Shown here: piece after piece, positions 4,723 through 56,391 of the stretch
Position numbering within the stretch: the first letter of the stretch is position 1
Layout of the letters: every line of letters begins with the position of its first letter
Origin: Leptolyngbyaceae cyanobacterium
GTDB taxonomy: Bacteria; Cyanobacteriota; Cyanobacteriia; Phormidesmidales; Phormidesmidaceae
Direction of reading: 5' to 3'
Length of the DNA: 64,000 nucleotides
Assembly (NCBI GenBank): GCA_050331235.1
Contig: JBHJHA010000010.1
Coordinates: 1 to 64,000, forward strand
Made by a program: the position numbers and the translations under genes
Notes under the pieces: model-generated
Database searches by the model: none
The model's input: the letters and a program-made list of their open reading frames with translations, nothing else
Told to the model about the DNA's origin: nothing

Positions 4723-5700
4723 GTGTTGACCGATCTTGCTGAGCAGCTGCGCCAAACCTTAGGCATCCGATACAAGCAGGACATTCAAACGGCTGCCCAC
4801 AAGCTAGGACAGTACGTATCGGCTGGAGAAAATCAGGCACCAATTTTGCTGGGGGACGACTGTGCCGCCATTCCCCGGGGCGATCGCTACCTGCTGCTAG
4901 CCGCCGAGGGGTTGTGGCCTCAACTCGTTCAGGCAGAGCCGTGGTTTGCCGGATGGAGTGCTCTGCTGGTGAACGTCAGCGATATTTACGCCATGGGGGG
5001 ACGGCCGATCGCCGTGGTAGATGCCCTGTGGAGCCCTACGGCGGCGGCGACTCACCCCCTGTGGGAAGGCATGTTGGCGGCTTCCCGCGCGTTTAACGTG
5101 CCCATCGTTGGCGGCCATACCAATTGCCAGAGCCCCTATGCGGCACTGTCAGTGGCGATTTTAGGTGAAGCCAATTGCCTATTAACTAGCTTTGATGCAC
5201 AGGTGGGCGATCGCTTGGTTCTAGTTGCGGACTTTGAGGGGCAGCCCTACCGCGACTATCCCTTTTGGGATGCCGCCACCGCTAAAGCGCCAGCCGACCT
5301 CCAAATTAATTTATCACTGCTGCCTCAAATCGCAGAGTCGGGTCTGTGCGATACTGCCAAAGACATCAGCATGGGGGGCTTGGTCGGCACCACCCTGATG
5401 CTAATGGAGACCTCCCGGTGCGGGGCGATTTTGCAGGTGGACCAGATTCCCTGTCCAGCGGGGCTATCGCTCCAGCGGTGGCTCACCAGTTTCCCCAGCT
5501 ATGGGTTTTTGCTCAGCGTGCGCCCCGAAAGGGTCTCCGCTATCCAGGCAATCTTTCAGGCGCGAGGGCTAGTATGTGCCGCGATCGGAGAGGTGGTGGC
5601 CCCCCTGACCTTGACCCTCAAAACGGCCGCCGAAACCGTGTATTTTTGGGATCTGCAACAGGCACCGTTAACCGGGTTTGCCCCTGTAGGCGCTAGCTAG
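4723..5700 (+). CDS. Sll0787-family AIR-synthase-like (PurM/ThiL/HypE/SelD fold) protein
   Basis: GDDCAA, VNVSDIYAMGG, IVGGHTN and KDISMGG motifs. Confidence 0.9.
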   Translation: MLTDLAEQLRQTLGIRYKQDIQTAAHKLGQYVSAGENQAPILLGDDCAAIPRGDRYLLLAAEGLWPQLVQAEPWFAGWSALLVNVSDIYAMGGRPIAVVDALWSPTAAATHPLWEGMLAASRAFNVPIVGGHTNCQSPYAALSVAILGEANCLLTSFDAQVGDRLVLVADFEGQPYRDYPFWDAATAKAPADLQINLSLLPQIAESGLCDTAKDISMGGLVGTTLMLMETSRCGAILQVDQIPCPAGLSLQRWLTSFPSYGFLLSVRPERVSAIQAIFQARGLVCAAIGEVVAPLTLTLKTAAETVYFWDLQQAPLTGFAPVGAS

Positions 5701-33286: not shown

Positions 33287-33922
33287 ATGACGCTGCAATT
33301 AGGCGATACCGTACCTAATTTCACCCAACAATCATCCGCAGGTGAAATTAACTTTTACGATTGGGCTGGCGATAGCTGGGTTGTGTTCTTTTCTCATCCC
33401 GCCGATTACACTCCTGTTTGCACCACTGAGTTAGGTGAAGTCGCCAAGCTCAAGGGCGAGTTTGAAAAGCGTAATGCCAAGGTGATAGCGCTCAGCGTAG
33501 ATGGTGCTGAGTCCCATAAGGGATGGATTGGCGATATTGATGAAACCCAGGGGACTGCCGTCAACTATCCCATCATTGCTGATGAAGACAAAAAGGTTTC
33601 TGACCTGTACGGCATGATTCATCCTAATGCTGACGATAAGGTCACTGTGCGCACCGTATTTGTGATCGACCCTAACCATAAGCTGCGTCTCACTATCACT
33701 TATCCCCCTAGCACCGGGCGTAACTTCCAAGAAATTTTGCGAGTTATCGATTCACTGCAGCTGACTGATAACTACAGTGTGGCGACTCCGGTGAATTGGA
33801 AAGACGGTGAAGACGTTGTGGTCTCTCCCAAAATTTCCACCGAGGATGCGAAAGAGCGTTTCCCTAAAGGGGTTACCGAAATTAAGCCCTACTTGCGGAT
33901 GACTCCCCAGCCCAACAAGTAA
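33287..33922 (+). CDS. 1-Cys peroxiredoxin (Prx6)
   Basis: FSHPADYTPVCTTELG, GRNFQEILRVIDSLQLT, ATPVNW. Confidence 0.95.
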   Translation: MTLQLGDTVPNFTQQSSAGEINFYDWAGDSWVVFFSHPADYTPVCTTELGEVAKLKGEFEKRNAKVIALSVDGAESHKGWIGDIDETQGTAVNYPIIADEDKKVSDLYGMIHPNADDKVTVRTVFVIDPNHKLRLTITYPPSTGRNFQEILRVIDSLQLTDNYSVATPVNWKDGEDVVVSPKISTEDAKERFPKGVTEIKPYLRMTPQPNK

Positions 33923-49317: not shown

Positions 49318-50084
49318 CCCAAGAATGAACGATTTTGGTCAATGCAATTCAATTAATTCCTTCGCCAACTCAATTGATTCATTACCAAGTTTAGAATTCT
49401 CCTTGCTGAGGATATACTTTAACGCTTTAAGATTGAGATTTTCTCGAAAGATGCGCCTCATCGTGCTGATCCTTGTTTGAATTGAGCTATAGGTGTAAAC
49501 ACAAACCGGAATTACATTCATCAAGTCTTCGCCATTTGCATATGGTTCATAGTAATCAACAAAGAAGCTTTTACCCATCCTACTTAAAAGATTTTCAAGC
49601 AAGACTTGTTCATCTTCAGAGACATGAATTTCTTTTCTTTGTGGTTCGACTCCCTCTTCCGTCAAAAATGAAATATTGTACTTGGGTTCGTTATCGTGAC
49701 TTTTCTCTGCAAAAAACAGAAGCTTGAATTCTTCGATTTCTGGAATCTCGGGAGAAAGTTGATCATAAAAGTTATAGATGTAAACACATTTTCGCTGGAT
49801 TTCTTCTTTAACTATTTTGACGACAGGATGCGATTCCGGATCTTTATCCATCAAATAATTGAAATGAGCTGGAATCAAGACAATATTCCACAGGGCAGAG
49901 AAGAATAGTGGGTGAGAGGCCAGCCCCCATACATGAGAAATAATGTAATTCTTTACTGTACTATTTTTTCCATGCTGATAGCATGACCAAGATATTTTTT
50001 GATTGATCGCCTGTTTTCATGGTTGCCATCATTGTCAATTTTAATATTGAATGCTGGATAGGCAGGTAGACGTGCTTCATTGTC

Positions 50085-51400
50085 CTGATTGACTGACAAA
50101 AGATGTGTTCTGTATCGCTGAGATGCTTGTCAGTAGGGCAACAGAGCTAGAGAAGAGGGAGTCAGCATTCTAGAATTAGATACCACTCAAACCCTAAGAA
50201 TGCTGTGAAAAAAACTCCCGCCTCTACCATGCCTTGATGAGTTGGTTGGGTCAAGGTGATAACTGGGCACACCTGAGTCACCTGACAACGTGTCTAGCGA
50301 TGGTATCGGCCCTGATTCAGAACGGCGAAGTTAACCTGACACGATGGATTGCCTACATTCCGTGCCGAGGGCACTACGCTCAGAGCAAGCAAAGACGAGG
50401 CAGACGATGGCTGAGTAATAGTCGCATCAACGTCCACCGCCTCTACAAACCCATCATCCAAGCCGTGCTGGCAGATTGGCAGGAAGCTGAGCTCTACCTC
50501 AGTTTGGATACCTCGCTGTTTTGGGACGAGTACTGCCTGATGCGCTTAGCGGTGGTGCATCGGGGCCGAGCCTTGCCGCTCGCTTGGCGAGTTTTGAAGC
50601 ATCCGAGTGCTTCGGTCGCCTTTGGGGATTATCAGCAGATGCTGAGTGATGCCGCTCACTATCTGCCCGCTGGCGTCAAAGTGGTGTTGCTGGCCGATAG
50701 AGGCTTTATCCACACAGAGTTGATGAGCCTCGTTGTGCAGCAACGGGGTTGGCACTATCGCATTCGGCTCAAGAGCACTGCCTGGATTTGGCGCACCCAG
50801 AAGGGGTGGCATCAGCTCAAAGACTTTCACTTTGCCCCCGGCGAAGCACTCTGCTTCCAACACGTCAAGCTACACAAGAGCCAGGGGTATGGTCCGGTGC
50901 ATCTGGTCTTTGGCCGCAACAACGTCAACGGCGAGTTCTGGGCCATTGTCAGTGACGAGAAGACGAGTCTGCAAACCTTTCGAGAATACGGTTTACGCTT
51001 CGACATTGAAGAAGCCTTTCTCGATAACCAGTCCAACGGCTGGAATCTACAGAAGTCAGACATCCGCTCCGTCTGTGACCTTTCCAGGCTGTTCTTCATC
51101 TTGGCGCTAGCCACGCTCTATGTCACCGCTCAAGGTATCGCTGTCGTTGAGGCGGGCAGGCGGCGCTGGGTCGATACCCACTGGTTTAGAGGCAACAGCT
51201 AGTTTCGCATTGGCTGCGAGTGGGTGAAGGCTGCTTTGCCGCAGGGGTGGCGCTTAACTCAGCAGGTGCGCTTCTGCTCTAATCGTGATCCTGAACCGGC
51301 GATGGCCTCGAGAAGGCAGCATCAACACCATACTCAGCGACTGGAGTTTACTGTGCGCTCTTTTAGCTACAAACCTGACTAACTTTTGTCAGTCAACCAG
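50085..51400 (+). mobile_element. IS4-family (IS10-like) insertion sequence, 1316 bp
   Basis: 18-bp TIRs CTGATTGACTGACAAAAG / CTTTTGTCAGTCAACCAG (1 mismatch); 9-bp TSD TTCATTGTC at 50076-50084 and 51401-51409. Confidence 0.93.
50205..51382 (+). pseudogene. DDE transposase, inactivated
   Basis: LSLDTS, LADRGF and YGLRFDIE motifs. GTG 50205 is out of frame by one base in an A7 run; premature TAG at 51200, after which the frame continues FRIG...DPEPA...YKPD*. Confidence 0.85.
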
Positions 51401-52416
51401 TTCATTGTCTCTTGTCAAAGCAATCGCTTCTGCCTTATTACTAATACCCAAAGCTTTATGATGGGATGGAGAATATCGGATGGGAAACTTGCCACCTATT
51501 TTATAAAGCTCGATCATCTCTTGGTTTCTTAGCCAGACAATTCCCGGAGGAATAAACAAAGTGCTCGCCAGAAATGCTTCCACAAAATCATCTTGATTTC
51601 TGTATAGTGAAACGAGTTGGTCTATTCCGTCGATCATACCTGCCTCTCCAAGCTATTTCTGAAGGTTTCAAGGTTTCCTCGTCCCACAGCATTTCTCCGA
51701 AGGTGTCGTCCTTCAACCGCTTGTTGTCGTATTTTGGGCAAGGATACTCGCTTGAGCAAAGATATAGCCGAATTCTTTCGCTTTTCCGTTATCCCGCAAG
51801 GGTACTCTTGCAAGCTTTCACTAAATAATAAATAAGTAGTTCCCTGGCGTAGAGTTCCATCTATTCCCAGAGGTTTGTATAGGTGTATTTTGCCGACGTC
51901 AATGCTTTAGGGACTCAGTAATCATGGCGATCGCCCCTAAGCACATGATGAGTACAAATATCCGACTAAAAAACTGTTCTAGAAATGTGACCATTAGATC
52001 AGAGATCAGCGTTAGCTCTAGCACTATGGAAATAATGTAAGCATGGTGCAGCCGGTCAGTGCCAGCAAAAAGTATTTCAAGGCAAGGGTGGCTAGAGGCA
52101 GCAGAGAGACTTGAGAAGAGCGCTGTCGCATAGTGAGGGCCTTAATAGAGAACCGTGTGTGAAGCACCGATGAAGGTATGGTGATCTCAGTATGGAAATC
52201 TCCACCGGTTTCTCCCGTTCAGAGCAGTCAATTTCTGTAATGGCCCGCAAATCGTCCACTCAACTGTCCAAGAAGAGCGGTTTTGTGGGCCTTTGCTCGA
52301 TTGCATGGTGTGACGGTTGGCAGTGAGGCCAGAAAGTATGACCAATTGGTTACAAAGCTAGCCTTGGAACCCGAAGTTTTTCGGTATAACCAGCAAGAAA
52401 GCTTTATAAGAAACCG

Positions 52417-53133
52417 ATGGTACATATTGCTGCCGAACCCTATGACTATCCACTACCCACGGGCGATCGCCTGGCGCTAATGATTATTGACATGCAGCGC
52501 GACTTTTTGGAACCGGGTGGCTTTGGGGCCGCTCTTGGCAATGACGTTACCCCCCTACAGGCAGTGGTACCCACGATTCAAAAACTACAACAGCTATTTC
52601 GCGATCGCGGTTGGTTAATCATTCAAACCGCTGAGGGGCATCAGGCCGATCTGTCTGACTGCCCCCCAGCAAAACGCGATCGCGGCCAAAGCGATCTCAA
52701 GATTGGTGATCGCGGTCCCATGGGTCGCATCCTGGTATTAGAGGAACCAGGCAATGCGATCGTCCCTGAGTTAGCTCCTCATCCTGGTGAGATTGTTATT
52801 GGCAAACCTGGAAAAGGCGCCTTCTACGCTACACAGCTTGGCTCCATTTTGCAGCAGCACGGCATCACCCACCTGATTTTCACTGGGGTCACGACAGAAG
52901 TGTGTGTGCAAACCACAATGCGCGAGGCCAACGATCGCGGTTACGAATGTTTACTGGTCGAAGAAGGGACCGCCAGCTATTTTCCAGAGTTCAAACAAGC
53001 CACCCTAGCGATGATCAGTGCTCAGGGCGGCATCGTTGGTTGGACAGCGACTTTAGAAGACGTATTGCAGGGGCTGGCAGCCATTCTGACCTCGCCTGCC
53101 GTTACGCCTCACTCACAAGCGAAAGCAACTTAA
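52417..53133 (+). CDS. Isochorismatase-family cysteine hydrolase, biuret hydrolase (BiuH)-like
   Basis: [39 protein letters not shown] and AQGGIVGW motifs. Confidence 0.85.
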
Positions 53134-53140
53134 CCCAAAT
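52968..53140 (+). repeat. Direct repeat copy 1 (3' end of hydrolase + degenerate pmbA 3' end)
   Basis: 52968-53060 matches 54917-55009 at 92 of 93 positions; the next ~80 bp align with substitutions and a 3-nt indel. Confidence 0.95.
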
Positions 53141-53171
53141 CCATCGAAAGGCCAATCAGCAGTCAAATTGA

Positions 53172-54149
53172 CTATTTTGATCCTTCAAAAATCACGGATT
53201 GAACTTGGTCTAATCCGGAAACCTGACCAAATAGCTTTTCCGAATAAGCTATCAGTTCTTCATTTCTCAGTAAGCTTTGATAAAGATCATTACCAAGAAA
53301 ATGACGCCAACGTCCGGTCACATCCATCTTAGATGGGTCTCCATCATGAACAATACCGTCGAAAGAACTACCGCCAGCTCGCCGGGCAACTTGATTGAAA
53401 CCAGCATCGGTGAAAGTTAAGCCTATCTGCTGAGCAATCTTCTTTCGATAGCTATAATCTTCAACCCAATGATTATAGTTGACACAGACCTTTTCTTCGG
53501 GCAAAAAATTCGTCTCCCCCAGGAATTCCTTAGCGTAAGATATCCAAATATCCGTAAAACTCGCGTATGTAGATTTAACGCTCACAAAGCCTTTTTTGAG
53601 ACGACTAGCGAGCAGGTTAAAAGGATCGCGCATAATCAAAAGATCAACTCGCCGGGCACTTTTACCTACGTACCAGTCATGCTTTCGTTCGAAACCTGAC
53701 TTAACAATCTTATCTAAAGAGTAATCTTCATAATTAAAAATCAAATAGTCTTTTTTCTGAAACTTTCCGATAGACTCAAGCCGAACTTGCTCAATCTCTT
53801 TAGGATACTCTGGATAGTGATCGCTAAAATATTCATACTCATGGCGAAAGGGATTTTCACTCAGTGGGACGTCGTTTATATGTTTGAAACGACCAGTATT
53901 TTGGTCGGCATGCTGTTTCTCAATCCAGTCAATCAAGGCGTGATTTCCACTGCGTCGTAAACCAACCATGCGAATTTCAGTTTGGTTGATGACACCCCAC
54001 AATTCCGGATTCTGAGTTCTTAGCCGGACAGCGTCCTGAAAGATATGTTTAAATTTACGATTTAGTTTTCTACTAGCGTAACCAGGTTTACGCAATGACT
54101 TTTTCCAAAGAGGATCGTCGTAAATTTTTTTCTTTATTTGCTTATCCAT
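53172..54149 (-). CDS. Sulfotransferase-fold (P-loop-like) hypothetical protein, AT-rich
   Basis: GLRRSGNHALIDWI (5'-PSB-like), LIMRDPFNLLASR (3'-PB-like), VNYNHW. Confidence 0.6.
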   Translation of the reverse strand: MDKQIKKKIYDDPLWKKSLRKPGYASRKLNRKFKHIFQDAVRLRTQNPELWGVINQTEIRMVGLRRSGNHALIDWIEKQHADQNTGRFKHINDVPLSENPFRHEYEYFSDHYPEYPKEIEQVRLESIGKFQKKDYLIFNYEDYSLDKIVKSGFERKHDWYVGKSARRVDLLIMRDPFNLLASRLKKGFVSVKSTYASFTDIWISYAKEFLGETNFLPEEKVCVNYNHWVEDYSYRKKIAQQIGLTFTDAGFNQVARRAGGSSFDGIVHDGDPSKMDVTGRWRHFLGNDLYQSLLRNEELIAYSEKLFGQVSGLDQVQSVIFEGSK

Positions 54150-54180
54150 TAGCGCTCTCCATTAAAGTTCTTTAAACTTT

Positions 54181-54837
54181 CTATACCAGTTCCTCACGGA
54201 CCTTAATACCATTTCTTTTTACAATGTATGCAGGTATACCAACAACTACACATCTGTCAGGAACGTCTTTAACCACAACGGCGTTTGCACCGACAGTTAC
54301 ATAGTCACCAATCGAAACTCCTCCGATTAGCTTAGCGCCCGCAGTTATGCGAACATGATTGCCGATACAGGGACGGCTATTACGGTCACGGTAGCCAATG
54401 GTCACTTGTTGGTTAACCCAGCAATTTTCTCCCAAATCAGCCATAATGATGGTGCTGAAGGCATGCTGAAGAAATAATCCAGGACCAATACTGCAAGAAT
54501 GCTCGATAAAAAGTGTAGTGCAGCCTTGATAGATTCTCTTAAGTATCCAAACAGGGATGCGGCCGAGGAGGTTGCCTTTGCCCAAACGAAAATAATAAAG
54601 ACTACGAAACTCTGGTAGTTTGCTGATCAATCGACGTCGATTTGCGCGAGGAGAATTGGTAGGGAACTCAAGAATTTCACTCCATCTGTTAACGTCCGCA
54701 ATGATGATGTCCTTTTCAGTGGTCAGCAGAAAAGGTAACTCTAAGGGTATGTAAAGTAACTCTACCCAAGCCTCCCACCAGCTCCTGAGCAAGGTTTTCA
54801 CAGTTGCAACCTCTAAACCTAAACCCAGGTTACCCAT
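54181..54837 (-). CDS. CysE/WcaB-like hexapeptide O-acetyltransferase
   Basis: IGPGLFLQH, NQQVTIG, IGNHVRITAGAKLIG, VGANAVVVKDVP...VVGIPA; GGAGG RBS. Confidence 0.88.
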   Translation of the reverse strand: MGNLGLGLEVATVKTLLRSWWEAWVELLYIPLELPFLLTTEKDIIIADVNRWSEILEFPTNSPRANRRRLISKLPEFRSLYYFRLGKGNLLGRIPVWILKRIYQGCTTLFIEHSCSIGPGLFLQHAFSTIIMADLGENCWVNQQVTIGYRDRNSRPCIGNHVRITAGAKLIGGVSIGDYVTVGANAVVVKDVPDRCVVVGIPAYIVKRNGIKVREELV

Positions 54838-54916
54838 TCAAGGCTCCTCCGTCACAGCTGTGAAGACTTTTCCGCTCCACAAGCCAAATCTCAAAAAGCC
54901 CAAGAGCACAGGAGTA

Positions 54917-55085
54917 GACCGCCAGCTATTTTCTAGAGTTCAAACAAGCCACCCTAGCGATGATCAGTGCTCAGGGCGGCATCGTTGGTTGGACAGCGAC
55001 TTTAGAAGAAGTGTTGCGGGGCCTAACGGCAATGCCTACCTCGGCTGTTACGCCTCACCCGTAATCGAAAGTAAATCAACCCAAA
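54917..55085 (+). repeat. Direct repeat copy 2 (orphaned hydrolase 3' end overlapping the pmbA stop)
   Basis: Translates [48 protein letters not shown] with no upstream gene body. Confidence 0.93.
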
Positions 55086-56391
55086 CACGGGGGCAGATAC
55101 CACCCGGTGTTACTTCGGCTTCAGGCTCAAGGTGAATGATCGAGTTGAGCACTTCTCTGAAATCGCCCGCCACCGTTGCCGACTCAATACTGACCCTTTC
55201 ACCCTGGTTGACCAGCCAACCGTCAAAGGGCAAAGAAAACGACCCTTGCAAAGCATTGACCCCGGCATGAAGCGCTTGCACTTCGTCGATGAAGACGACA
55301 TTTTCAGCGGTGTCTAGGCTTAAAGCCGCCGATGATGGCTCGCCTGGCATAACGTGGTAAAAGTTAGCATCTACACTGACCTTGGCCCCGATGCTCGCAT
55401 GACCTGTAGGTTCGGCTCCCATGCGCTTTGCCGTACCTGCACTATGCAAGAAATTAGCTAAGACACCCTTGTCGATAATCGGTAGTCGGCGGGTGGGCGT
55501 TCCTTCACCGTCAAAGGTTTCAATGCTGACGTTGTCAGGATGGAGGGCGTCGTCGTAGACGGTTAGCAGTGGGCTAGCAACCTGGTTACCCAACGAATCT
55601 GCCGTTGATAAACTCCGATTATCCAAGATGCTCTGGGCATTGAACAGGTTGGAAAACGCATCTAGCAAGCTCAAAAAGGCCTCGGCTGAAAAAACGACTC
55701 GGTATTTACCTGAATCAATTTTTTGATAGTCCAAATGACTCAGGGTTTTTTCCGTCGTTTCTTGAATGCAGGCGTCGATGTCCAGTAGCTCAAGCCCGCG
55801 ATCGACCTGCATGGCGCCGGCGGAGCGGGGCTTTTTACCGGCTTGTTCCGTTTTGCTGTAGAGATAAAGGGACGCATAGCTACGCTCTTCGCGCCGCTGG
55901 GCCCCCTTACTATTGAGATAAAACCGATCCACCTGGCGTTGGGCCATGCCGTTGTAGGGGACTGACGCGATCGCAGGATGCGCGTTTAAAACGGCTTTTT
56001 CTGCTTGCACCAGGGTTTTGATCAGCAATTGCACATCGCTGGAGGGTACTGTGTCATAGTCCACCGCTGCTACTGGCTCAGTAGCAGCAGGACTGAAATC
56101 TGGAACATGCTCCTTAGCCCCAAAGGCCGCTGCCGCCGCTGCCGTCTGTAAAGCCAGATTCATCCCATTGGGATCAACGTCCGTAGTGGTGGTAACACCG
56201 ACCAATCCTTCATCGTTCCAGACTCGTACAATCACGCTTGATCGCTGAGACGCCTTGACCTGCTTAGGCTCACCCTGGTCAACCTGGACGCTGGTTTCAT
56301 CTACGGTAGAACCATAGACGTCGTATTTTTGGATACCGTGCTTTTTCGCACTTTCCTGAGCGTAGGTGGCAATCTCTTGAAGCGATGGCAT
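55048..56391 (-). CDS. pmbA: PmbA/TldE-family protein
   Basis: LTVYDD, FDGEGTPT, GVLANFLH, TGHA, GSFSLP, ATVAGDF; no HExxH motif. Confidence 0.85.
   Translation of the reverse strand: MPSLQEIATYAQESAKKHGIQKYDVYGSTVDETSVQVDQGEPKQVKASQRSSVIVRVWNDEGLVGVTTTTDVDPNGMNLALQTAAAAAAFGAKEHVPDFSPAATEPVAAVDYDTVPSSDVQLLIKTLVQAEKAVLNAHPAIASVPYNGMAQRQVDRFYLNSKGAQRREERSYASLYLYSKTEQAGKKPRSAGAMQVDRGLELLDIDACIQETTEKTLSHLDYQKIDSGKYRVVFSAEAFLSLLDAFSNLFNAQSILDNRSLSTADSLGNQVASPLLTVYDDALHPDNVSIETFDGEGTPTRRLPIIDKGVLANFLHSAGTAKRMGAEPTGHASIGAKVSVDANFYHVMPGEPSSAALSLDTAENVVFIDEVQALHAGVNALQGSFSLPFDGWLVNQGERVSIESATVAGDFREVLNSIIHLEPEAEVTPGGICPRVWVDLLSITGEA

What the first reader, a model, noticed from the sequence alone, without database searches (positions are those of the whole stretch)
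52968..55085. Integrase-free gene cassette inserted with a duplicated, half-diverged gene junction that repairs the target gene
Seen: two AT-rich genes are flanked by ~170-bp direct repeats. The first 93 bp are identical except one base; the rest is diverged but still reads as protein in both copies. Copy 2 is an orphan hydrolase 3' end (EEVLRGLTAMPTSAVTPHP*) overlapping the real pmbA stop. Copy 1 supplies the working hydrolase end ([25 protein letters not shown]) and hides a degenerate pmbA end on the minus strand ([12 protein letters not shown] versus VWVDLLSITGEA*). Inference: the ancestral locus was hydrolase-><-pmbA with overlapping ends. A ~1.95-kb unit carrying a homologous junction from another lineage then integrated by single crossover in the 93-bp core, like attL/attR but with no recombinase nearby. 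Recombination between the cores would excise a circle, so this may be a switchable surface-modification cassette. It could be transcribed by read-through from pmbA.
Basis: partly seen in the sequence, partly recalled or inferred. Interest (0 to 1): 0.72.

Follow-up and report, generated by a model that had tools for sequence, protein, structure and literature searches.

The report
Gene pair inserted via duplicated tail
In a cyanobacterium, two genes predicted to modify cell-surface sugars sit between two copies of the end of a hydrolase gene, likely the scar of ordinary recombination that left both neighbouring genes intact, which is a known integrase-free kind of insertion.

Summary
The repeat is real: 172 columns, with a 93-bp core (1 mismatch) and a diverged tail (57 of 79). 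It flanks 1,777 AT-rich bases encoding an acetyltransferase and a predicted sulfotransferase-fold protein. In 10 of 13 congeners the hydrolase meets pmbA with no cassette; four share copy 2's 17-bp overlap, so copy 2 is the native junction.

The junctions look different in age. Copy 1's pmbA stub has decayed, both tails diverged as coding DNA, and the core is far too alike for that tail distance. One crossover cannot make that pattern; an old cassette-linked allele likely entered through a near-identical core.

No integrase was found on the contig. Another genus has an orphan core at the same gene with a different boundary and cargo. This genome has similar scars at clpB and ureC. In one run the cassette contigs have half the flank depth, a hint of mixed empty and filled cells; switching is not shown.

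This is a new member of a known kind: insertion with long target duplication, working like rhs C-terminal displacement. The scan reported this architecture before on other DNA.

The parts
52417..53133 (+). Isochorismatase-family cysteine hydrolase (BiuH-like, 238 aa); the target gene, intact, using tail 1
   Evidence: PF00857 E 8.5e-39; NF050097 BiuH 249.6 bits, below its cut-off of 370
52968..53060 (+). Core, copy 1 (93 bp), inside the hydrolase's conserved 3' part
   Evidence: 92 of 93 identical to copy 2
53061..53141 (+). Tail 1: incoming working hydrolase end with a 6-codon extension, carrying a decayed 13-codon pmbA stub on the minus strand; its right edge is the older junction (J1)
   Evidence: Stub has 4 private amino-acid changes at positions invariant in 11 relative loci; stub stop at 53102-53104
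53172..54149 (-). 325-aa protein, predicted sulfotransferase fold; no Pfam or NCBIfam family
   Evidence: AlphaFold pLDDT 92.6; all listed Foldseek hits are sulfotransferase-fold proteins, best E 1.8e-5, TM 0.29-0.42; no family
54181..54837 (-). Hexapeptide-repeat O-acetyltransferase (CysE/EpsC/WcaB-like, 218 aa)
   Evidence: PF00132; EpsC E 2.3e-28, below cut-off; 76% identical to the gene heading a GT2/GT4 cluster in L131
54917..55009 (+). Core, copy 2 (orphan hydrolase fragment); its left edge is the sharp, likely younger junction (J2)
   Evidence: One mismatch (Pro to Leu) at 54934; chance-level identity left of 54917
55010..55085 (+). Tail 2: displaced native hydrolase end, still an open frame, overlapping the real pmbA end by 17 bp
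   Evidence: Same -17 geometry as L002, L005, L008, L012
55048..56391 (-). pmbA (TldD/PmbA family, 447 aa), intact
   Evidence: PF19289, PF19290, PF01523; 80-84% identical to congeners

Best explanation
[quoted passage not shown] Step 1 (old, inferred): in a closely related allele or sister population the gene pair became joined right behind the hydrolase/pmbA overlap (J1). Tail 1 then kept coding for the hydrolase end but lost its pmbA role. Step 2 (recent, inferred): that piece entered an empty locus through a near-identical core; its far end was joined by a non-homologous joint (J2), either by circularising before one crossover or by homology-facilitated illegitimate recombination. Because the two host genes overlap, only an insertion that duplicates the overlap keeps both whole, so selection would favour this shape (inference). 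The pair is likely transcribed by read-through from pmbA (untested). RecA crossover between the cores would delete it one way and restore a 232-aa hydrolase.
For: Empty ancestral junction in 10 of 13 congeners and in metagenome locus L021. Tail 2 has the ancestral overlap. In the hydrolase-only tail codons, differences fall at third positions 8 of 14 versus first/second positions 4 of 28 (Fisher p 0.009), as expected if both tails diverged as working hydrolase ends. The pmbA stub in tail 1 has decayed. Core versus tail divergence: 1/93 vs 19/76, p 8e-7. No integrase or resolvase hit on contig C10. G185, another genus, has an orphan core behind different cargo (DUF6883, DUF4926) with another left border. 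The same genome has duplicated gene ends around toxin-antitoxin-like genes at clpB and ureC. The gene pair heads a glycosyltransferase cluster in G179/L131 with no flanking repeat and is patchy: acetyltransferase in 5 of 172 family genomes at E<=1e-45. Single-crossover duplications of 109-950 bp were shown experimentally in E. coli (PMC3240628, passages).
Against: No donor allele was found: the tail 1/cassette joint matched in none of 172 family genomes, so step 1 is inferred. The order of J1 and J2 rests on 13-14 codons, and 1 change in the first 18 core bases is only weak evidence that J2 is young (p about 0.04). Recurrence at this gene is rare: 2 of 127 genomes with a core match. G185 is 85% complete, 6% contaminated and breaks at the repeat. 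Contigs cannot show the path through the core. The 75% identity to other genera is about what core genes show between genera (pmbA 69-75%), and the pair is also AT-rich in L131 (45% vs 51% flanks), so a distant donor is not proven.
Confidence: 0.66

Rival explanations
1. Remnant of an integrase-driven island (e14/icd type, or a cis-mobilizable element): site-specific crossover at the left edge of the core, the element supplying a replacement 3' end, and the integrase later deleted or supplied in trans.
For: Sharp left border with host-identical sequence from the first base. Same layout as icd/e14/icdC (PMC13626634, passages). The genome holds recombinases on other contigs.
Against: No integrase or resolvase hit on C10. 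The G185 orphan begins about 55-60 bp further upstream, so there is no fixed att site. No viral contig carried a real relative of the hydrolase (1 weak 50-residue hit). No island at this junction in the 10 congeners.
Confidence: 0.12
2. One old local event duplicated all 172 bp around the inserted genes. The copies then drifted apart, and gene conversion or recombination with empty alleles later re-homogenised the core.
For: Tail 1 shares derived residues with the host. A third pmbA-linked tail allele with 5 differences in 135 bp exists in X1 (record 6), hinting at exchange in this stretch.
Against: Conversion would have had to reach the very first base at J2 yet stop 79 bp short of J1. Tail 2 shows coding-type divergence, so it must have come from an empty allele anyway, which brings this rival close to the best explanation.
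Confidence: 0.12
3. The integrated form is an assembly product: the cassette lies on a free 1.95-kb circle or a tandem array in some cells, and the assembler walked the loop once.
For: In X1 the cassette contigs have depth 5.09 and 4.78 against 10.2, 9.9 and 10.2 for the upstream flank, tail 2 and pmbA; all contigs break at the core.
Against: A circle of these two genes has no replication gene. Tail 1 makes sense only as a chromosomal hydrolase end. The core SNP lies 76 bp from the first tail difference, within reach of ordinary short reads (inference; read length not known). A mix of filled and empty chromosomes gives the same depths.
Confidence: 0.07

Closest known systems
Insertion with long target duplication (Furuta, Abe and Kobayashi 2010, PMC2853133, passages read; Nobusato et al. 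2000 seen only as its reference)
   Same: Insert under 20 kb flanked by a unique direct repeat over 30 bp, no mobile-element gene inside, empty site in related genomes, lower G+C; the paper lists a cyanobacterial (Microcystis) case.
   Different: Their cases carry restriction-modification genes, and the listed repeats are mostly 84-100% identical overall. Here the cargo is an acetyltransferase plus a sulfotransferase-fold gene, and the repeat splits into a 99% core and a 72% tail spanning two overlapping genes.
rhs C-terminal displacement (Jackson et al. 2009, PMC2935791, passages read)
   Same: Identical core fragment of variable length plus displaced old tip downstream; GC-poor cargo between; proposed route through a non-replicating circle and homologous recombination that needs near-identical cores.
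   Different: The target is a metabolic hydrolase, not an Rhs toxin. The tips are homologous 14-20-codon ends with no known separate function, there is no immunity gene, and there is one module only in this genome.
Homology-facilitated illegitimate recombination and single-crossover duplication (PMC3240628; PMC5361080; passages read)
   Same: One homologous anchor and one non-homologous joint; duplications of 109-950 bp arise from circles bearing part of the target gene.
   Different: Classic HFIR deletes recipient DNA, whereas here 93-172 bp are duplicated. The event was not observed, only its scar.
e14 prophage in E. coli icd with the icdC pseudogene (PMC13626634, passages read); cis-mobilizable elements (definition recalled; search listing only)
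   Same: The element supplies a replacement 3' end, the old end becomes an orphan fragment, and excision makes a chimeric gene.
   Different: No integrase or phage gene here, and no fixed crossover site across the two cases found.

Membership tests
Insertion with long target duplication | Direct repeat over 30 bp, unique in the genome | tested here: met
   172 bp, two copies only
Insertion with long target duplication | Empty site with one copy in related genomes | tested here: met
   10 of 13 congeners, other species at about 76% DNA identity; no same-species genome was held
Insertion with long target duplication | Insert under 20 kb with no integrase or transposase inside | tested here: met
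   1,777 bp, two ORFs
Insertion with long target duplication | Restriction-modification cargo (selection rule of the Furuta survey, not of the geometry) | tested here: not met
   Cargo is an acetyltransferase and a sulfotransferase-fold protein; so it is filed under the insertion geometry, not under the RM-mobility subset
rhs-type C-terminal displacement | Near-identical core fragment plus displaced tip downstream of the intact gene | tested here: met
rhs-type C-terminal displacement | Rhs/YD-repeat host gene with non-homologous toxin tips | tested here: not met
   Host gene is PF00857 and the tips are homologous: it works like the rhs case but is not a member
Integrase island / cis-mobilizable element | Cognate site-specific recombinase in cis or trans | tested here: inconclusive
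   None on C10; 3 weak PF00589 and 3 PF00239 hits on other contigs, target sites unknown
Integrase island / cis-mobilizable element | Fixed att crossover site across independent insertions | tested here: not met
   The G185 orphan starts about 55-60 bp upstream of the window's border; only two cases
Integrase island / cis-mobilizable element | Excision or mobilisation by a related intact element | not testable with these tools
   Needs a culture and excision assays
PAPS-dependent sulfotransferases (325-aa ORF) | Sulfotransferase fold | tested here: met
   Foldseek probability 1.0 to SULT7A1, OLS and CurM sulfotransferase domains, with modest TM scores of 0.29-0.42
PAPS-dependent sulfotransferases (325-aa ORF) | Sulfotransferase profile match and activity | tested here: inconclusive
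   No sulfotransferase Pfam hit in 64 family members and no real PDB sequence hit. Invariant R66-x-G68-N69-H70 and R174-D175 resemble the PAPS-binding motifs (recalled). Activity untested.

The most novel reading that the evidence does not exclude
The unit is a long-lived, recombinase-free cassette that cycles in and out of the hydrolase end by RecA alone, so that a mat population stays split into cells with and without an acetyl/sulfate surface modification. The half depth in X1, the third tail allele, the refreshed core and the orphan cores at the same gene in G185 would all be traces of this ongoing turnover.
Probability: 0.12. Interest if true: 0.62.

Novelty: new member of a known kind. 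Interest (0 to 1): 0.3.

Why it matters
It is a clean example of how accessory genes get in without an integrase, and of why such scars sit at gene ends: two overlapping genes can only be pushed apart by duplicating the overlap. The literature on insertion with long target duplication is thin (1 paper held with these terms plus cyanobacteria) and its mechanism is still a hypothesis. This locus has a marker base in the core 76 bp from distinguishable tails, so ordinary reads can count filled, empty and circular forms directly. If the population really is split, it would tie a two-gene surface modification to strain-level diversity in a microbial mat. As it stands it is a scar of a known kind.

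Tried and rejected
Exact 41-bp core pattern in metagenome contigs: 0 matches. The hydrolase in metagenome contigs gave 80 loci; only L021 had pmbA next to it, and the second hydrolase hits in them were 33-57% paralogs, not orphan tails. Run search: no RNA holder listed, which is no evidence on expression. X2 and X3 cover parts of the cassette and flanks at depth 2-7, too sparse to compare. A finer read lay-out of the junctions was not obtained, so the letters of the third tail allele are unseen. Viral contigs: no real hydrolase relative. The neighbouring IS4-family element (50078-51407) ends 1.0 kb upstream of the hydrolase and does not flank the cassette; rejected as the vehicle. HIP1-mediated insertion: no GCGATCGC or CGATCG inside the insert (chance 0.09 and 0.03) and none at the joints; weak support for foreign origin only. 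Decayed older homology left of J2: none (19 of 60). Promoter/terminator scan: counts at shuffle level (1 vs 2.9; 3 vs 2.3), uninformative. Flanking repeats at the gene pair's other homes L131 and L194: none of 28 bp or more. Of 30 low-copy direct-repeat pairs in the genome I read three besides this one: C36 and C63 fit the pattern, C15 is DUF202 paralogy. C59, from the looser scan, is a pair of full-length paralogs. C27 was fetched but not examined, and the rest were judged from ORF context only. Eight further genomes with two core matches were not opened: their second matches are on other contigs or cover only the first 50-92 query bases. PMC122325 is not held. A keyword search for the pattern in cyanobacteria returned 19 papers, none on point from the listing. 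Supplements were not consulted; Furuta's Supplementary Figure 7 may hold closer cyanobacterial cases.

Full report
Setting. The window is G000:C10:1-64000 of a 4.80-Mb, 118-contig assembly, 52.6% G+C with 6,482 copies of GCGATCGC (the name HIP1 is recalled). Named relatives of its proteins are Leptolyngbya-type cyanobacteria.

Observation. Confirmed in full. The repeat 52968-53139 / 54917-55085 has 172 columns at 86.6% identity and no third copy; it scores 251 against at most 43 in 300 shuffles. The first 93 bp differ at one base (Pro to Leu in the orphan copy). The remaining 79 columns have 19 mismatches and a 3-bp gap (Fisher p 8e-7 for the contrast). Outside both ends identity is 19 of 60, so the borders are sharp. 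Between the copies lie 1,777 bp at 42.5% G+C, in the lowest 0.5% of the genome. Both cassette junctions also stand in contigs of run X1 (records 3 and 4), which may be the source sample.

Genes. Left: an isochorismatase-family hydrolase, BiuH-like but below the family cut-off. Right: pmbA. Cargo, both on the minus strand: a 218-aa hexapeptide acetyltransferase of the CysE/EpsC/WcaB type and a 325-aa protein with no family hit, in itself or in 64 aligned relatives. Its model (pLDDT 92.6) matches sulfotransferases in every listed Foldseek row, best E 1.8e-5, with modest TM scores of 0.29-0.42. The same pair, at 75-76% identity and in the same order, heads a GT2/GT4 glycosyltransferase cluster in L131/G179, with no flanking repeat there. 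A role in acetylating and sulfating surface polysaccharide is therefore a prediction from fold and context. The pair is accessory: the acetyltransferase has close relatives in 5 of 172 family genomes, and the congeners' full-length relatives of the 325-aa protein are only 44-46% identical. A distant donor is not proven: 75% is about the pmbA identity between genera, and the pair is AT-rich in L131 too.

Ancestral state. Of 13 congeners, 10 have the hydrolase tail-to-tail with pmbA and no cassette: four overlap by 17 bp, one by 88 bp, and five have 94-268 bp spacers. One has no hydrolase match and two are broken by contig ends. Metagenome locus L021 has the 17-bp form. Copy 2 has exactly this overlap, so tail 2 is the native junction and tail 1 came with the cassette.

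Two ages. (1) In the pmbA frame, tail 1 has four private changes (E to K, I to L, T to V, G to S) at positions invariant in 11 relative loci. It keeps an ancestral Ile that the host's pmbA has changed, and it shares a derived Leu with the host. So tail 1 comes from close kin and has long been free of pmbA's constraint; J1 is old. (2) In the hydrolase-only tail codons, differences fall at third positions 8 of 14 and at first or second positions 4 of 28 (p 0.009), as expected if both tails diverged as working hydrolase ends, tail 2 in an empty allele. (3) The core is too alike. Among 55 pairs of relative loci, the 4 with core identity of 85/92 or more have 22-23/24 in the first tail codons, and pairs with 15-18/24 there have cores of 66-83/92. 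The window pair has 91/92 with 16/24. A single crossover only swaps parts and leaves the copies as different as donor and host were (reasoning), so the donor's core was already near-identical to the host's. The orphan core has one change, so it is young or refreshed; that J2 itself is young is only weakly supported (p about 0.04).

No recombinase. PF00589 gives three weak hits and PF00239 three hits, none on C10. The IS4-family element at 50078-51407 does not flank the cassette. No viral contig carried a real hydrolase relative.

Recurrence. In G185, another genus, the full hydrolase is followed by DUF6883, DUF4926, a third ORF and an orphan hydrolase core (93% to its own gene). A further core copy (97%) starts another contig and diverges just after the same conserved motif. 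Its left border is about 55-60 bp upstream of ours, which argues against a fixed att site. This is 2 of 127 family genomes with a core match (four candidates scored per genome, short orphans could be missed), and G185 is 85% complete, 6% contaminated and breaks at the repeat. In G000 itself, among 30 low-copy direct-repeat pairs, two of the three others I read have the same build: the clpB 3' end (124 bp, 87%) around DUF433, nucleotidyltransferase and HEPN genes, and the ureC start (173 bp, 92%) around a ParE-like gene and its partner.

Population hint. In X1 the upstream flank, tail 2 and pmbA contigs have depth 10.2, 9.9 and 10.2; the two cassette contigs have 5.09 and 4.78. A uniformly filled population would give equal depths. 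The tool warns that contig depth is no share of cells, and the cassette contigs are lower in G+C (41-46% vs 51-54%), so this is a hint only. It fits a mix of filled and empty chromosomes, and also a free circle, because contigs break at the core. A third pmbA-linked tail allele (record 6, 5 differences in 135 bp, depth 2.6) is present; its letters were not seen. Two SNPs in the upstream contig point to more than one strain or to a different sample.

Mechanism. Shown: the geometry, the ancestral empty site, which tail is native, the unequal divergence, no recombinase on the contig, recurrence. Inferred: an old allele with the gene pair joined behind the overlap; its later entry through a near-identical core by RecA-type recombination with one non-homologous joint; selection for the duplication because the host genes overlap; read-through from pmbA (no promoter-like or terminator-like site in between, weak); one-way loss by crossover between the cores, restoring a 232-aa hydrolase. 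Confidence 0.66. Rivals: integrase-island remnant 0.12, old duplication with conversion 0.12, assembly loop or free circle 0.07.

Known kinds. Furuta et al. 2010 (PMC2853133, passages) define insertion with long target duplication; the geometric criteria are met and the restriction-modification cargo is not. Jackson et al. 2009 (PMC2935791, passages) propose the circle-and-core model for rhs; this locus works like it but is not rhs. PMC3240628 (passages) shows 109-950 bp duplications from single crossovers; PMC5361080 (passages) invokes homology-facilitated illegitimate recombination for displacement arrays; PMC13626634 (passages) describes icd/e14/icdC. The definition of cis-mobilizable elements is recalled (listing only). 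Searches showed no paper on this locus or gene pair, judged from listings. Earlier notes of this scan describe the same architecture in other genomes; they led me to the Furuta, Jackson and e14 comparisons and are not counted as evidence.

Verdict. A real insertion scar, a new member of a known kind. Interest 0.30. The bold reading, a RecA-only cassette still cycling in the population, has probability 0.12 and interest 0.62 if true.

Noticed in passing
window 50078-51407: IS4-family element with 25-bp imperfect terminal inverted repeats. Its transposase frame has an in-frame stop at 51200-51202 and reads on for about 60 codons, so it is likely inactivated; no identical copy elsewhere in the assembly.
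   Followed up: partly
L197 (G000:C63:31853-31976 / 33597-33720): clpB 3' end duplicated (124 bp, 87%) around DUF433, nucleotidyltransferase and HEPN genes; same architecture as the finding.
   Followed up: partly
L196 (G000:C36:989-1160 / 1820-1992): ureC start plus about 100 upstream bases duplicated (173 bp, 92%) around a ParE-like gene and its partner; here the 5' end is the displaced part.
   Followed up: partly
L172 (G185:C402) and L193 (G185:C20:1-200): Three copies of the hydrolase 3' core; the orphan is fused to a duplicated DUF4926 start (89 bp, 94%), suggesting stacked insertions or an assembly problem.
   Followed up: partly
L201-L213 (viral contigs of 69-527 kb): Distant relatives (19-31% identity) of the 325-aa sulfotransferase-fold protein occur in 13 loci on large viral contigs.
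   Followed up: no
window 53172-54149: The 325-aa protein belongs to a large family (541 hits; named ones cyanobacterial) with no Pfam model and a predicted sulfotransferase fold.
   Followed up: partly
L003, L006, L007, L009, L010 (hydrolase-pmbA junction): Five congeners have 94-268 bp spacers at this junction in place of the overlap, so the site gains short inserts repeatedly.
   Followed up: no
window 54983-55117: Third tail allele in run X1 (record 6), 5 differences in 135 bp, against 2 in 1,010 bp for the upstream contig.
   Followed up: no
L199 (G000:C27:4184-4341 / 4939-5097): 164-bp repeat (70%, with a 27-bp perfect run) around 597 AT-rich bases; fetched, not examined.
   Followed up: no
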